DNA from: Octopus sinensis
Taxonomy: Eukaryota
Length of the DNA: 64,000 bases
Reading direction: 5' to 3'
Assembly: GCF_006345805.1 (NCBI RefSeq)
Contig: NC_043012.1
Location: 19,406,001-19,470,000 of the forward strand
Shown: positions 5,207 through 54,207 of the stretch, piece by piece
How positions within the stretch are numbered: position 1 is the stretch's first letter
Layout: the number at the start of each line of letters is the position of its first letter
The notes under the pieces: model-generated
What the model saw: only the letters and a program-made list of their open reading frames with translations
The model's database searches: none
What the model was told of the DNA's origin: nothing
Program-made: the position numbers and the translations under genes

Positions 5207-8200
5207 ATATTATATTATGTTATTTTATTTCATTAAATTTTCTTTGCGTATACCATATCATGAGGTTATTCTGAAATAGGAGTTTATCTATTGGTAAATA
5301 TTCCAAATTTGTACTAATAATATTATATATGTGAATATATATGCGTGTGTCTGTATAAATGCGTATATATATATATATATATATATATGCATAAATGTAT
5401 ATATTTGTGTACTTACATAAATATATGTATATATACATATCTGCATGTATATATATATATATCTGTATGCATAAATGTTTATGTGATATATGTATGTATT
5501 TGGGGAAATAATATCCCTATTTTTTAGTAGGCGTGAAATTAGCATCTTTTTAGAAAAGAATGCAATGCATAACAAAGGGACAATTCTTCAGGCGAAGAAA
5601 GCATAATGTCAAATGCACTATTGTCTATTTACAATACATTTCCATTTTTATTTTCCTTTTTTTATTTTCAAATTTAAAAATAATATATTGTTCACGTAAT
5701 TAAATCTCAACAACAACGGAAATCGATAAAATGTGTCCCTTTGCTACATGAAAATTAACTGTGAAAAAAGAGAAACGAACAGAGAAACCTAAACGCCTTT
5801 AAAACAAAAGAATATCAATAATTATCGACTGCTATTTGTCATTTAGTTCTTTTCATTTTTGTTGTTCAAAGTTATGGATTTTTTTTTAAATGAAGATAAT
5901 ATGTAAACAAAACGTGTTTTCTTCTCTCTAGATTAATATGGCATCTTCGTGGTAAAATCATTTGTCTCATCCTTATTTACAAATATGAAATAGAAAAGAA
6001 AACAATGAAAAAGAAATGATTCACTATTATCAATAATTCATTTGCTGACTCCCAAATAATTATACCATCATAAGTGAAAGGAATCTGAAAATGTTGTTGT
6101 TTTATTTTTTACAATAATACACAATAAATACATTTAAACGTTTATTGCAATTCTGTAATGAATGATGCTTGCTCTAAATCACATTTAGAATGATTGAATA
6201 TTTGTGTCTCCTTTATGTGGTTTTCTACACATTTGTTTCATCTATAATGCCAATTAGTGGAAAAGAAAATAGATCATAGATAGAAAAATATTTTATTCAA
6301 TGACAGAAACAATTTACATTGCGAACATCGATTAAAATAATCACAACACAAATAACAAGTTTAACCTTAGGTAATACAATTAATGTGTACTCTTACATTG
6401 AACGCCTTCCTGTAAAAGGGTCATTATATGAAATGTTGCTATTCTTCTTCGTTTTATAGCCCTTAATATCGTCTCTGCTCGGCTTCTACTAAGGACAAAG
6501 TCGTAGTAACTGAGACGTTTCGAACTTTATCTTAGATGCATTAACATTTTACATTACCCAATGACTATTAATTTCAAGACAGAAAGAATTTATGAGAACA
6601 GAATTTTAGTTGTTATTACCAGCAATGGTGGTGCAACATATATTCTAAATTATATATTCACAGTTAAATTGTGTGAGCAGAAAGAAATGCAACGTTATTT
6701 AGTCTAAAATTGACTCAAATTTCTGAATGTCAATGAAAAATAACTCTGTCGTGTATTTCTTAGAAGTTATGTCTGTATTAGCAAATATGTTTTATTAATG
6801 TTCGTTATTAATAACAGAGTTTTCACTTACAATACCTCCAATTACGTTTTCGCGAGTTGTGTACTTTGATACTGTACCGAAATACTTCTAAGTGATTTTT
6901 TTTAGTCAGTCATAACGAGCAATGATATAACGCAGTTTATATATTTTTTTGTTCTTTTTTATAGGAAAATATATCCGATGAGGTCGTGGAACTTTTGTAC
7001 TCATCAGGTGAAAAAAAGAAAGAAAATAAGTCATTGCGCGTATGAAAATTTGATCACGTGTCAACTAGTTTCAACATAAACTCCACACAGCCAGATACCC
7101 CAGGATCGGTTAAAATACTACTCGTCGCTATCAATGAGGATCTTAAGGGGATAAAGTATGCCTTGACAATAGAAAATAATTGCATGTAAAATTTAATCAT
7201 TACCTTCAGAGGCAGTAAATTCCCCCTGGCCCCGAACATTAGATGGCATATTATCCATAATACAGTACTGCTCACATACATTTTACGTTGCCATTGCTGC
7301 TAAATACACAGGTCTTTTAAATACTAACAAAGTACAGTCTACTCGACAACTCTTCATGATCTCACCGAGAAGCATATTCATAGAATGCTCCACATAAGCA
7401 TTGGCTCCTCTCTACTGCTGTCACTCACAAACTCTCGTCTCTGTCTGTTTCAGTGTCTCGTCAAATGTATTTTGCTAACCAGAAGCTATCGCTCTCACAA
7501 ATATTGACTGTTAGTTTTTTTTTTTGTTTTTTTTTCAAAGAACATCAACATTGTCGAATTACATCAGTACACATGATTCTTCTACTACCAATCACTTGAA
7601 TCAGCTTCAGTGGAACGTTACTGCTATGAATTTTATCTGTCTTTTAGGGTGTCAAATAATTGTAAGTTTTCCTTTCTTCTCTGAACGGTTTCAGTGTTTA
7701 ATGAGCCATACCCATATAGAAATATTACTCTTTTCCCATATTACAGAATTTGTTCAGAATACTCTATATTTGTCATCAATGTATTTGCTAAAAGCGAAAT
7801 AGTATGAAAGAGCTGAAGAAATCCAGAATAAAGTCTCTGCGCATGCCTATGAATAGAGTCATTTCAAATCTGTAGGTTTTCATGTACCTAATATGCTCAA
7901 TGGATTCACTCTTATCATGGAAACATCGTTTTGGTTCCTGTGAAAATCGCTCGCACTGTGTTTGGCAGTAAGAAGTTTGGAATAATTTCTATAATAGAGT
8001 ACCTTCATATTTGCTCATTCTATATTTATATACAATATATCATAAGTGTGTGTTTCCCCGTCACAGAATACATTACAAAATGTTTCTGGGTAATGTAGAA
8101 ATGCTGCTCAACTAATAGATGGAATATGGTGAATTCTGCTGACATTTACGCTATTTTCCATATATCTATGTAAATGCAAACAGATATTGAAAAGGAAGTA

Positions 8201-11184: not shown

Positions 11185-12370
11185 TCACCTGCTCCCTCCC
11201 ACGCGGTCGCACCGGCCCCTACCTCTCCAACACCATCATCCTCATAGGGATTTTTTTATGAACAAGTCTCGAGAATGGCCATAAGGATGAGAATGGGCCC
11301 CAACTATTCGAACCTGTTCGTTGTCTACGTTGAAGGTCAAATATTCTCACAATTCACTGGTGCCACTCCCGAACTATACAATCGTTATATCGATGACTGT
11401 AACGGTGTTGCCTCATTCTCCCGCGAACAAATACTATCCTTACTCTCTTTTGTCCAATCCTTCCATCCTGCCATTTAACTCCTCTGCACTATCTCTCAGT
11501 CTTCCGTCGAATTTCCCGACATTTCTGTCAGTATACATCACTCCACTCTCACTACATCCATCCACACTCTTATCTGAACTTCTCCGCCTTCCATCCAACA
11601 GACATCAAACTCTCCGTACCCTACTCCTAATTCCTCCGTCTTCGCAGGCTCTTCAGTGACAATCCTGACTGTGTCTCATTCTCTACCCATTGCTCGCCAC
11701 TTCTTCCTACGTGGATATCCCTTCACCACTACCCACACTGCCCTTGCCAGGATCCTATCTGTGGACCGAGCCCCTGCTACTTGTCCTCTCATCCGCCCTT
11801 ACGTTTCTCGTCTCCTGTTCCACTCATCTACCACCCCACAACCCTGCCACTTCAACGCACCATCCTCCGAGCATTCCGGTGACTCCAGCCCAAACCCTCC
11901 ACTTTCCACATCTTCCCCAAACTACCCTATTCTTCCTTCAAACCAGCCGTAACCTGCCTGACCGCCTGGTTATTGGTTTCATCCGTAACCCCACCTCCCA
12001 CCCGGGCATGTTCCCCTGCTTCATCTCACGCTGTCATACCTGCCCCTAATTCTCGAATACTACCATCCTCACAGGCAATGATCATCGTCCCTGTTACATC
12101 ACCGGGTCCTTTACCTGCAGGTTTAGTAACGTCATTTACTGCAACCCCTGATCTCTGTATCCTTCCCTGTTCTTCGGTCAAATAGGACGCCGCTTGGCTG
12201 ACCGGTTCGCGGATCAACTGCGAAACATTAAACCCGCAATCGACACCTCAGACTCGTGCCATTTCCGCTCTACTTGCATTGGCTTCAACATCTCTCTGTG
12301 TACGGACTGTCTTTCGACAGACCCCATCCAGGCTCACGTCTACTCTGTGTTCAAGATTGATCTTCTTTCT
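11185..12370 (+). mobile_element. Decayed Penelope-like element (RT plus GIY-YIG endonuclease), probably Neptune-like
   Basis: MGPNYSNLF and RYIDD (11383-11397), LPYS*FLRLRR, FFLRGYP, the Cys-rich linker CFISRCHTC, and NVIYC...FFGQIGRRLADRF (12128-12232) appear in PLE order with stops and frameshifts. Confidence 0.85.
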
Positions 12371-18284: not shown

Positions 18285-18991
18285 TACAGGATGTCCGTAA
18301 AGTCTTTCCATAATTTATAAAATTCATTTCAAAGACAATTGATAAGATAACTGGGGTTCTTCTGATCCCCCAGATTCTCACGTTCTACTTGTTCAGTTTC
18401 ACTGAAACGTAAAAGGTTGCCTCATCACTAAAACAAACTCGCCTGAGGAATGCTTCATCTTCAGAAATTAGTCGCAACATGTAAACTGCAAACTATTTTC
18501 TACTTGGTTTATCATTTGGCTCGATTGCCCGTAAGAGTTGCACTTTGTAAGCGAGCAATAGAAGTTTCGTGTGTAGGAACGTCTGAACTGTTGAACGTGG
18601 TAGCTCTATTTGTCTGGCAGCAGTATGGATAAACTTTGTGGGTGAGCAAGAAAAGGTTTCTCTCACGCGATCAATGTTTTCCTCAGATGTTCTTAGTAGC
18701 CCACTCTTCTTTCTATGTAGCATTGTCCGTATCTTCATAAATCTCTTATGCCATGCATGAATTAACGGAAGCGATGGTGGTTCTTTTCTATACTTTGCTC
18801 TGTAGTTTCGTTGAGTGTGCGTATCCGATTTTATCTCAATAAACCATGATACACATTGTGCTTTCTCTTGAGGAAAAAACTATTTCTTAGGGGTTCATTA
18901 AAAAAAGGCTTGTGTGATTAAATGTGATCAAAAAATTTAAAAACCACTGAGTACAATAGAACAAGTCTAATTAAGATATCTTATCAATTGT
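18285..18991 (-). mobile_element. Tc1/mariner-superfamily transposase relic (N-terminal HTH region)
   Basis: Minus translation QCVSWFIEIKSD...HAWHKRF...RTSEENIDRVRETFSCSPTK...AARQIELPRSTVQ...AYKVQLL. TA-caggatgtcc terminus; inverted acaattgataagata at 18335-18349 and 18977-18991. Confidence 0.75.
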
Positions 18992-48333: not shown

Positions 48334-48524
48334 AAGAAGAAGAAGAAGACCGAAAAATAACTTAGGAAGGAGAACCCAAGTTCAAAATTTCCCGAAGACA
48401 CCTGATGAAGGCTGGAGGACATATGAGCCGAAATGTGTTAACAAACAAGATGAGGACAAATGTACGTCAATTGTAAATAATGTAAATAATGTACATAATT
48501 GCTCATCTCTTAAATATTGAACTC
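47161..48524. mobile_element. Head-to-head inverted pair of the tRNA-head/hammerhead element, plus copy interrupted by an insertion
   Basis: Minus copy about 47161-47462. Plus copy: head 47467-47540 (B box gagttcgattcc), (AAT)n, insert 47681-48243, (AAT)(AAG)n, CTGATGA at 48402-48408, GAAA at 48430-48433, tail to 48524. Confidence 0.85.
47681..48243. mobile_element. Unclassified non-coding insertion (about 560 bp) within an (AAT)n tract
   Basis: GC-richer block with sharp edges, flanked by (AAT)n on both sides, splitting an otherwise colinear element. Confidence 0.65.
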
Positions 48525-48544
48525 TCTGTACATTCAAACTAATT

Positions 48545-49630
48545 ATTATTTTACACGATAATAGAATTAAAATTACTTTGAATAAAACCCTTTCTAACAT
48601 GGAAGTATCCAAAGAGCATTTGAGGCATATAATGTTTTATGATTATAAGAAAAGGAAACTCTGCAGCCGAACCGACTCAGTTTATGGGGGAGAATGCTTG
48701 AATGAAAGGGCTTGCAGAAGATGGTTTGCAAAATTCAGAAGTGGAAATTTTAGCCTTGAAGATGAAGATCGAACAGGACGTCCAGTTGAGTTTGATGATA
48801 AGTTCTTTGAGGCATTACCTGAAGAGAATCCTGCTTTATCAGTTGAAGAATTGGCAATAGAACTTAGTACAAACCATACAACTGTTCATTGTCATCTTCA
48901 ACAACTTGGAAAATGGGTACCTCGTATATTGTCCGAAAGCAACCGCAAGTCTCGAGTTGACATCTGCTCTTCTCTCTATTCTCGCGAACTCATTTCACCC
49001 TTTTTGGATAGACTTGTAACTGATAACGCGATATGGATCTTCTATCGAAATGTTAAACGTCGTAAACAGTGGCTTGGTAAAAGGTTAAAAACTCAACCAC
49101 AACCGAAAAGGGAACATCATGGGAAAAAGGTTCTTCTCTCTATCTAGTGGGATTGCAAAGGAATAATTCATTTTGAATTGTTATCACCTAATGCAATAAT
49201 CAATGCTCAAGTCTACTCTCAGCAATTAGAGAGTTTGAACCAAACTTTGAAGAAAAAAGACCCGCTTTAGTGAATCGAAAAGGAGTGATGTTTCATCAGG
49301 ACAATGCGCAACCCCACGCTGCAAATATCACATCACAGAAGATCGAAGAGCATGATTGGGAAAAAATTCCTCATCGACCGTAAATCTCCCGAACTTGCTC
49401 CTTCAGACTATCATTTGTTTCGTAGTTTACAGAACCATTTGGGGGACATAACTTTCGCAAGCCAGGAGGAGGTCGAGACTGACATTTCAAAGTTCCCCGC
49501 TTTGAAACCAAAAGAGTTTTACATTGATGGCATTAAAGAACTTGTAAATAGATGGAAGGAAGTCATAGAAAATCAGGGAAAGTACATTGATGATTAAATT
49601 TCAAAATTTTGATAAATCTCATAAAGTCAA
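48545..49630 (+). mobile_element. Near-complete mariner (DD34D-type) transposase pseudogene
   Basis: ATG at 48599; RRWFAKFRSGNFSLEDEDRTGRP, GKWVP, RLVTD, FHQDNAQPH and SPELAPSDYHLFRSLQNHL; stop at 49597; internal stops and frameshifts. Confidence 0.9.
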
Positions 49631-53319: not shown

Positions 53320-53623
53320 TTGATATTCACCGTGACCGACCAGGCTAGCATATATTGCTACACATCGCTGGTCACAATGCGCTTCGTATTCTTTTAGCCT
53401 TCGAAGGATGCCACCCCGCTGGCTAAGCGAGCAGGCCAACAGAAGAAAGAATGAGAGAAAGTTGTGGCGAAAGAGTACAACAGGGATCGCCACCACCTGC
53501 CGGAGCTCGAATAGCTTTAGGTGTTTTCGTTCAATAAACACTCACAACGCCCGGTCTGGGAATCGAAACCGCGATCCTACAACCGCGAGTCCGCTGCCAT
53601 AACCACTGGGTCATTGCGCCTCC
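53320..53623 (-). mobile_element. tRNA-derived SINE family 3, tail type B
   Basis: Minus strand ggaggcgcaatgacccagtggtta...ggtttcgattcc (A and B boxes); body shared with 12576-12870, 3' part different. Confidence 0.85.
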
Positions 53624-53695: not shown

Positions 53696-53731
<36 letters not shown>

Positions 53732-54146
53732 CTTTATTTTAAGCAGCAGAAAATTCAACAAAATCTGTTACTCTGAGTTTCTCGTTGCCGTTCATCAGAC
53801 AGTTTTTGCTAGAATGGAACTGATATATCAATTCAATCTATACTCTTACAAACGCTACACCTTTAAAAAGAAATGGACTTGTTTGATTGGCCCTTTAGAA
53901 AAAACGGTCAATCTTCGAGCGATCAAACAAGTCCATTTCTTTTTAAAGGTGTAGCGTTTGTAAGAGTATAGATTGAATTGATATATCAGTTCCATTCTAG
54001 CAAAAACTGTCTGATGAACGGCAACGAGAAACTCAGAGTAACAGATTTTGTTGAATTTTCTGCTGCTTAAAATAAAGCATATTACTCTACCACTGGTATT
54101 TGAGTACTCTTCTTTCCGCCTTGTTTCACATTTATGTGTTTACTCC

Positions 54147-54148
<2 letters not shown>
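53732..54148. mobile_element. Young PLE-like inverted structure: 156-bp inverted repeat plus a one-sided tail extension
   Basis: Arms 53732-53887 and 53922-54077 appear to be exact reverse complements with a 34-bp spacer; the right arm continues about 70 bp; (TA)n on both sides. Confidence 0.85.
54007..54044 (+). ncRNA. Type I hammerhead ribozyme-like motif (mirror copy on the minus strand at 53765-53802)
   Basis: ctgt-CTGATGA-a-cg GCAA cg-a-GAAA-CTCAGAG-TA-acag: canonical core, GNRA-capped 2-bp stem II, near-palindromic stem III, GUA triplet (predicted cut after 54040), 4-bp stem I. Confidence 0.7.

Positions 54149-54207
<59 letters not shown>

What the first reader, a model, noticed from the sequence alone, without database searches (positions are those of the whole stretch)
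53732..54077. Apparently perfect 156-bp inverted repeat with a canonical-core hammerhead on each strand
Seen: two arms with no mismatch found by eye, a 34-bp spacer, and an HHR with CTGATGA, GAAA, a GTA triplet and a ctgt/acag stem I at 54007-54044, mirrored at 53765-53802. Stem III ACTCAGAGT is a near-palindrome that cannot close a normal loop, consistent with the dimeric activity known for minimal HHRs. Inference: a very recent PLE-type insertion and the best ribozyme candidate here. A read-through transcript would fold into long dsRNA that masks the ribozyme.
Basis: partly seen in the sequence, partly recalled or inferred. Interest (0 to 1): 0.72.

Follow-up and report, generated by a model that had tools for sequence, protein, structure and literature searches.

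The report
Head-to-head Penelope retrotransposon end stub
The perfect palindrome is real, but it is an ordinary short leftover of a young, abundant Penelope-type jumping gene: two back-to-back copies of the gene's hammerhead-bearing end in a TA repeat, likely made when its enzyme copied one RNA from two fixed start points.

Summary
The 156-bp arms are perfect and both carry a type I hammerhead motif. The insertion is larger than reported. The 34-bp 'spacer' belongs to the left arm (190 bp, tail-less), and the right arm runs on through a 72-bp tail to 54149, all inside (TA)n. The parent is a Hydra-type Penelope-like element (711-aa ORF, RT plus C-terminal GIY-YIG-like domain). The genome holds 2,397 identical copies of this 38-nt hammerhead, and 45 of 89 tail-less ends on contig C1 have an inverted tailed partner. 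Perfect arms are common (19 of 31 short pairs), so they do not date this copy. Stem II has only 2 bp and an A-A at its base, so cleavage is likely weak and dimer-dependent (untested). At family level, 5' ends pile up at an initiator-like site (53994; 53 copies abut TA there) and not at the ribozyme cut (4). Paired arms share subfamily alleles (23 of 23). Both fit two cDNAs primed on uncleaved RNA. Opposite-strand hammerheads and one-sided tails are published, and this scan has noted the same pattern in several other windows and genomes.

The parts
53696..53731 (.). Left (TA)n target microsatellite
   Evidence: Sequence; target-site duplication cannot be read inside TA repeats
53732..53921 (-). 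Tail-less arm, 190 bp: 5'-truncated copy of the element's 3' end (element positions -34 to 156, where 1 = 53922), ending at the first fixed 3' end
   Evidence: the same end abutting TA occurs 1,205 times
53765..53802 (-). Mirror copy of the hammerhead motif
53888..53921 (-). The 'spacer': the extra 5' part of the tail-less arm, not foreign DNA
   Evidence: Its reverse complement lies directly upstream of the arm in other copies
53922..53923 (.). Head-to-head junction: 2-nt microhomology, extendable to 8 bp with one bulge at a short natural inverted repeat of the element
   Evidence: Sequence comparison with other copies; the junction 23-mer occurs once in G000
53922..54149 (+). Tailed arm, 228 bp (element positions 1-228)
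   Evidence: tail-continuing copies 1,093
53967..53998 (+). TATA-like word (53967-53972) and initiator-like word (53992-53998); inferred RNA 5' end near 53994, mirrored at 53815 on the minus strand. Consensus words recalled, promoter activity untested
   Evidence: 5' ends of 34 of 161 arms fall at positions 73-76, 5 of 161 at 47-72; 53 copies abut TA here
53978..54000 (+). Overlapping words that also resemble a branch point, pyrimidine tract and AG acceptor ending at the foot of hammerhead stem I (rival reading; consensus recalled)
   Evidence: Sequence only; no spliced junction seen among the 161 arms
54007..54044 (+). Type I hammerhead motif; stem I extends to 53999-54052; predicted cut after 54040
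   Evidence: 2,397 identical copies; covarying relative L184
54071..54077 (+). AATAAA followed by the first fixed 3' end (position 156)
   Evidence: Sequence
54078..54149 (+). One-sided 72-bp tail (end ambiguous by 1-2 nt); two substitutions against the family majority, at 54112 and 54118; in tandem copies the tail runs on into the 5' UTR and ORF
54150..54205 (.). Right (TA)n target microsatellite
   Evidence: Sequence

Best explanation
This is a 418-bp head-to-head stub of a young Hydra-type Penelope-like retrotransposon in a TA microsatellite, likely formed when the element's enzyme primed two cDNAs from the two cut target strands, one at each of two fixed sites 72 nt apart, and the two incomplete cDNAs joined by microhomology. 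Shown: parent ORF, two fixed 3' ends, head-to-head pairing, shared alleles between arms, and a pile-up of 5' ends just upstream of the hammerhead rather than at its cut site. Inferred: that both cDNAs came from one RNA or one source element; that the pile-up is the RNA 5' end, so that short stubs come from priming in the 5' terminal repeat while this copy, which extends past that site, came from the 3' repeat; that the template was uncleaved. The hammerhead is the family's standard terminal-repeat motif, predicted to be nearly inactive as a monomer and weakly active at best as a dimer or with protein help; this non-coding stub is likely inert. My odds: PLE stub 0.95, two-primer origin 0.6, RNA start near 53994 0.55.
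For: Parent: 711-aa ORF between two repeats in L071 with RWK, DKT, YRDD, CxxC and CRH; 7 of 65 matches are full length without stops. Two ends: 1,205 tail-less and 1,093 tail-continuing. Pairing: 46 of 89 tail-less ends on C1 have an inverted tailed copy within 12 kb, one of them (L072) a mis-pairing of two separate palindromes. Either arm can be the longer: 13 tail-less, 11 tailed, 7 equal of 31 short pairs; all 7 equal ones centre on a self-complementary word of 2-6 nt with no loop, which fits annealing of two ends and not a fold-back. Arms share five diagnostic alleles in 23 of 23 pairs, shuffle mean 3.7, maximum 11 in 10,000. Both arms stop at or after position 73 in 25 pairs, both pass it in 19, 1 is discordant (L072 dropped). 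TA-abutting 5' ends genome-wide: 53 at position 73, 10 at 93-94, 4 at the cut site, 2 at 46-50. PMC11167929 (parts 1-2 of 4 read) shows a PLE protein cutting and extending both strands, two internal start sites bounding the tail, and uncleaved RNA as the main substrate.
Against: All mechanism evidence is from genomic copies; no RNA ends, cleavage or priming were measured. 43 of 89 tail-less ends had no exact-pattern partner, so single-arm and other outcomes are common. Allele sharing cannot tell one RNA from two RNAs of one source, and is also expected under fold-back; the 23 pairs include best-hit loci and L071 twice. The four TA-abutting patterns differ in length, degeneracy and microhomology, so their counts are only roughly comparable. 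5 of 161 arms do end at 118-121 (all with microhomology). The 20 ends at position 76 are inflated by a self-complementary CTAG. The pile-up site also looks like a splice acceptor. The tail is 72 bp against 30-40 bp in the papers read. Pfam found no family for the ORF and no tree with named PLE clades was built.
Confidence: 0.72

Rival explanations
1. Same element, but the mirror arm arises by self-priming: one cDNA (or an antisense RNA) folds back and copies itself, and the endonuclease then trims one end, leaving the one-sided tail.
For: Proposed for A. vaga Penelope in PMC3846280 (passages); tail attributed to endonuclease resolution in PMC8557442 (passages). Explains identical, allele-sharing arms. 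The window junction lies at a natural short inverted repeat.
Against: A fold-back from the tailed strand predicts the tailed arm is the longer at the junction; in this copy and in 13 of 31 short pairs the tail-less arm is longer, and 7 of 31 have no loop at all. Single arms abutting TA at position 73 (53 copies) need no fold-back.
Confidence: 0.2
2. The pile-up at positions 73-95 is a block to reverse transcription, not the RNA 5' end: a retained intron ends at the foot of stem I and bound splicing factors or local structure stop the enzyme.
For: The words at 53978-54000 resemble a branch point, pyrimidine tract and AG; in D. virilis Penelope the intron ends at helix I (PMC4209133, parts 1-2 of 4 read). 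The ends are spread over 73-95, not at one base.
Against: A stochastic block should often stop one arm and not the other; only 1 of 45 pairs is discordant. 72 of 161 arms pass the site. No spliced junction was seen.
Confidence: 0.25
3. A self-propagating non-coding palindromic or retrozyme-like element that replicates as this 346-bp unit through ribozyme cleavage.
For: Hammerheads on both strands; short direct tandems of the family end exist (L030, L082).
Against: The junction occurs once in the genome; spans range from 63 to 4,991 bp; arms are contiguous with a coding element; few ends lie at the cut site.
Confidence: 0.03
4. Assembly or library chimera at this locus.
For: Palindromes between TA repeats are hard to assemble; no laid contig spans the whole locus.
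Against: One arm lacks the tail and ends at the family's fixed site, which a chimera would not reproduce; 45 similar pairs on C1 have varied centres; run X1 has an 81-nt contig over the junction (1 other letter; 30 letters on the right, one short of the tool's bridging rule; X1 may be the source sample).
Confidence: 0.04

Closest known systems
Hydra-clade Penelope-like elements (PMC8557442: section 11, passages and supplement part 2 of 59 read)
   Same: C-terminal endonuclease, RWK and DKT motifs, no CCHH, CxxC and CxH around the conserved E and N, (TA)n targets, sense-strand hammerhead near the 3' end with a near-palindromic stem III (1-nt loop in 17 of 26 listed rows) and a mismatch at the base of stem II (15 of 26 rows, my count). 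Hydra-2_aMil has the same stem I. Penelope-13_HM has an inverted 5'-truncated copy with a hammerhead on both strands.
   Different: Unit about 3.3 kb (listed families 3,045 bp or less); linker is CNFx5C in most long copies, not CxCx5C; stem II 2 bp, shorter than any listed (minimum 3); the hammerhead differs from that of Hydra-1_Obim and two motifs of this family were not found in the supplement.
Insertion units of EN+ PLEs with an inverted 5'-truncated copy and one-sided tail (PMC8557442, PMC3846280, PMC2377424; passages)
   Same: Head-to-head inverted copy, tail on one side only, partial tandems, TATA/Inr-like words in the terminal repeat.
   Different: Tail 72 bp against 30-40 bp; here the stub has no ORF.
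Metazoan PLE hammerheads (PMC4209133, parts 1-2 of 4 read)
   Same: Dual motifs 100-700 bp apart on opposite strands are described there; palindromic stem III, extra base after A9, inactive as monomer and weak as dimer.
   Different: That paper finds G10.1-C11.1 highly conserved and stem II long; here A-A and 2 bp.
Poseidon element PAc of Anolis (PMC11167929, parts 1-2 of 4 read)
   Same: Two fixed start sites bounding the tail, AT-rich targets, hammerhead in the terminal repeat not needed for insertion.
   Different: Different clade; there the hammerhead overlaps the start codon, here the first Met lies about 65 nt past the tail.
Non-LTR retrozymes (bioRxiv 10.64898/2026.07.22.740005, part 1 of 5 read)
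   Same: Type I hammerhead derived from a PLE terminal repeat.
   Different: Retrozymes are direct tandem units; this is a unique inverted pair.

Membership tests
EN+ Penelope-like elements | Single ORF with RT and C-terminal GIY-YIG endonuclease in the parent | tested here: met
   711-aa ORF with YRDD and a VVY..YTG, R, H, E, N pattern; homologue P0003 carries PF01541; Pfam itself gave no hit for P0001
EN+ Penelope-like elements | Partial tandem forming pseudo-LTRs | tested here: met
   L069, L070, L071: tail runs into the 5' UTR and ORF
EN+ Penelope-like elements | Inverted 5'-truncated copy and one-sided tail | tested here: met
   45 of 89 tail-less ends on C1; tail is 72 bp, longer than the published 30-40 bp
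Hydra clade | RWK and DKT motifs | tested here: met
Hydra clade | No CCHH; CxxC and CxH beside the conserved E and N | tested here: met
   Read by eye from the alignment of 10 proteins
Hydra clade | CxCx5C linker | tested here: inconclusive
   Second Cys is Phe in 21 of 30 long copies, Cys in 5, other in 3, not found in 1; all 9 relatives aligned have CxCx5C
Hydra clade | (TA)n insertion preference | tested here: met
   the tail-less pattern required TATA, so that count is selected for it, but the tailed ends were not
Hydra clade | Phylogenetic placement with named Hydra families | not tested
Type I hammerhead ribozyme | CUGANGA, GAAA, UH and three stems | tested here: met
   stems I and III covary in L184
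Type I hammerhead ribozyme | Base pair 10.1-11.1 closing stem II | tested here: not met
   A-A in the family majority: 2,397 exact copies against 89 with another base at 11.1; a mismatch here is common in Hydra motifs
Type I hammerhead ribozyme | Self-cleavage | not testable with these tools
   Active fold is 5.5 kcal/mol above the minimum for the monomer; dimer minimum pairs stem III between molecules
Non-LTR retrozymes | Direct tandem units copied as a fixed monomer | tested here: not met
   Inverted pair with a unique junction

The most novel reading that the evidence does not exclude
This family is a genome-wide record of PLE integration: one uncleaved RNA is copied twice, from two fixed sites into both target strands, and its 5' end lies 46 nt upstream of the ribozyme cut, so the hammerhead sits at the very tip of the transcript and, reduced to a 2-bp stem II, serves as a structural element more than a cutter. 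That would give an in vivo counterpart to the in vitro two-site result and a first handle on Hydra-clade transposition.
Probability: 0.45. Interest if true: 0.45.

Novelty: new member of a known kind. Interest (0 to 1): 0.22.

Why it matters
The locus itself is ordinary. The family matters modestly: it is young, has intact ORFs and over a thousand stubs, so its end statistics bear on two open PLE questions, how inverted ends with one tail form and whether the hammerhead cuts the template. The data favour two-strand priming on uncleaved RNA and predict exact coordinates (RNA start 53994, priming at 54077 and 54149) for bench tests. It also warns that perfect arms in PLE stubs are a birth feature and not a clock.

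Tried and rejected
Rfam at gathering score: 0 matches; at E up to 10: 53 matches, none a hammerhead. Pfam on the parent ORF: 0 families. First greedy end-mapping stopped at subfamily variants and was replaced by an X-drop alignment. L072 was dropped from pair counts as a mis-pairing. One truncated-tail copy (31 differences) inflated the tail rate; without it tail and arm rates are both about 0.5% per base, so a faster-decaying tail was rejected. Enrichment of 5' ends at the ribozyme cut: not found. An ancestral paired stem II: only 89 copies have a non-A base at 11.1, mostly G. Sequencing runs: no RNA holder on record, so expression is untested; contigs of 4 runs did not span the TA flanks and X2-X4 listed no piece over the junction, with tables cut, so presence/absence is untested. 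Metagenome scan gave 2 loci, one with a hammerhead. Tail hairpin: present in this tail but not significant (z -1.3) and folded differently in L184. No host exon was recognised among 41 ORFs of 110 aa or more; whether the site is intronic is unknown. Literature searches found no paper describing this family, twin priming in PLEs, or a 5'-end pile-up at an initiator; subscription papers, Repbase and Dfam were not searchable, and 58 of 59 parts of the PMC8557442 supplement were only keyword-searched.

Full report
Observation. The arms 53732-53887 and 53922-54077 are exact reverse complements over 156 bp with 34 bp between them. Each holds a type I hammerhead motif (54007-54044 and 53765-53802); these were the only two hits of my descriptor in the window, against 0.2 per shuffle. 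Rfam did not recognise it.

True extent. A genome search with the right arm scored 40 of 1,567 candidates and returned copies about 99% identical over all 229 bases. In them the reverse complement of the 'spacer' lies directly upstream of the arm, and all continue through the same tail into (TA)n. The insertion is therefore 53732-54149: a 190-bp tail-less arm and a 228-bp tailed arm joined 5' to 5' by a 2-nt microhomology. The junction 23-mer occurs once in G000. Below, element position 1 = 53922.

Parent. Longer copies carry an ORF on the hammerhead strand. L071 has a 711-aa ORF between two repeats, and in L069-L071 the tail runs into the 5' UTR. The protein has RWK, DKT, YRDD, a C-terminal GIY-YIG-like region without CCHH, and CxxC and CRH motifs, matching the Hydra clade as described in PMC8557442 section 11. 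The linker has Phe for the second Cys in 21 of 30 long copies. No tree was built. 7 of 65 protein matches are full length without stops. The genome is a 2.72-Gb AT-rich animal assembly; other notes of this scan call it an octopus, which I did not test. The family is not Hydra-1_Obim by its hammerhead.

How common. There are 1,205 exact tail-less ends abutting TA, 1,093 tail-continuing copies and 2,397 exact copies of the 38-nt hammerhead. On contig C1, 46 of 89 tail-less ends have an inverted tailed copy within 12 kb; one is a mis-pairing, and 18 spans lie at 147-167 bp. Perfect arms are usual: 19 of 31 short pairs and 11 of 23 pairs over positions 1-156. This copy has 2 tail substitutions; 52 of 59 tailed copies have 0 or 1 over the same 112 bp. 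The family is young, but this copy is not unusually so. Opposite-strand hammerheads 100-700 bp apart (PMC4209133) and inverted copies with a one-sided tail (PMC8557442; PMC3846280) are published.

The ribozyme. The catalytic boxes are canonical and stem I is predicted to extend to about 11 bp. Stem III is the Hydra-type near-palindrome (1-nt loop in 17 of 26 listed rows); it is unstable as a hairpin (+2.1 kcal/mol) and stable as a self-duplex (-7.4), and the monomer's active fold lies 5.5 kcal/mol above its minimum. Stem II is 2 bp with A-A at its base; this is the family state (2,397 against 89). A mismatch there is common in Hydra motifs (15 of 26 rows by my count) and in the metagenomic relative L184 (C-A), whose stems I and III covary, but no listed stem II is shorter than 3 bp. 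Published PLE hammerheads are inactive as monomers and weak as dimers or protein-assisted. I infer the same or weaker here. The two motifs in this locus are on opposite strands, so one transcript cannot supply a dimer. A read-through RNA would form a -272 kcal/mol hairpin, but no such RNA was shown.

Mechanism. I mapped the 5' ends of all 161 exact-pattern arms on C1: 89 end at or after position 73, 34 at 73-76, 5 at 47-72, 5 at the cut site 118-121. Genome-wide, 5' ends abutting TA number 53 at position 73, 10 at 93-94, 4 at the cut and 2 at 46-50 (patterns only roughly comparable). Position 73 sits in an initiator-like word about 26 nt after a TATA-like word (consensus recalled). Paired arms both stop at or after 73 (25) or both pass it (19), with 1 discordant. 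Either arm may be longer (13, 11, 7 equal), and equal pairs centre on self-complementary words with no loop. Arms share subfamily alleles in 23 of 23 pairs (shuffle mean 3.7; the set includes best-hit loci and L071 twice). The simplest reading, in line with the in vitro behaviour of PAc, is two cDNAs primed at positions 156 and 228 on opposite target strands from uncleaved RNA and joined by microhomology. Priming in the 5' repeat would run off at the RNA end and give the short class; this copy extends past 73 and would come from the 3' repeat. These steps are inferred. Fold-back self-priming and a splice-site block at 73-79 remain rivals.

Artefact check. No contig from 4 runs spans the locus. 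Run X1 has an 81-nt contig over the junction with one other letter, 30 letters on the right side and depth 128 against 38.5 for the unique flank; X1 may be the source sample, so this is weak support. The asymmetric tail and the fixed end argue against a chimera.

Earlier notes. After my analysis I looked up the scan's notes: several describe the same kind of stub and the same two-start idea in this and other genomes; none matched this sequence. They are unchecked and add no independent evidence. A shared tail hairpin noted there was not supported by my two-sequence check.

Verdict. Real, correctly recognised as a PLE with a hammerhead, and ordinary as a locus: a new Hydra-type family member with useful family-level end statistics. 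Interest 0.22.

Noticed in passing
L030 1501-2036; L082 876-1401; G000:C5:83780961-83781330: Short repeated units of the family end (307-bp and 299-bp spacing; three starts 167-175 bp apart on C5). Direct tandems like these would be the natural setting for a dimeric hammerhead.
   Followed up: no
L153-L182, linker before the endonuclease: The second Cys of the CxCx5C linker is Phe in 21 of 30 long copies, including intact ORFs, while TA targeting persists.
   Followed up: partly
window 29385 (+), 48402 (+), 2734 (-): Other hammerhead-like cores with longer G-C stem II, likely from other PLE families; by eye each lacks a paired stem I or a valid cleavage triplet, and none passed the descriptor.
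   Followed up: partly
window 11291-12049: Broken PLE-like coding fragment on the plus strand resembling those beside L016 and L017; a different family from the finding.
   Followed up: no
window 48521-49147 and 18493-18879: Open frames that resemble Tc1/mariner transposase remnants (recalled resemblance, not searched).
   Followed up: no
window about 53340-53617: A very high-copy repeat lies just left of the TA run (depth), probably a SINE.
   Followed up: no
L070 about 5341-6279: A tandem copy of the family begins inside the hammerhead (position 115) and is joined to an inverted RT fragment of another PLE-like family.
   Followed up: no
L184 1-3174: Complete repeat-ORF-repeat Hydra-type element (46% identity) with a longer stem II, AATAAA after the hammerhead and a TA end.
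   Followed up: partly
window 54071-54077: The tail-less end falls one base after an AATAAA word; too close for ordinary poly(A) cleavage, role unexplained.
   Followed up: no
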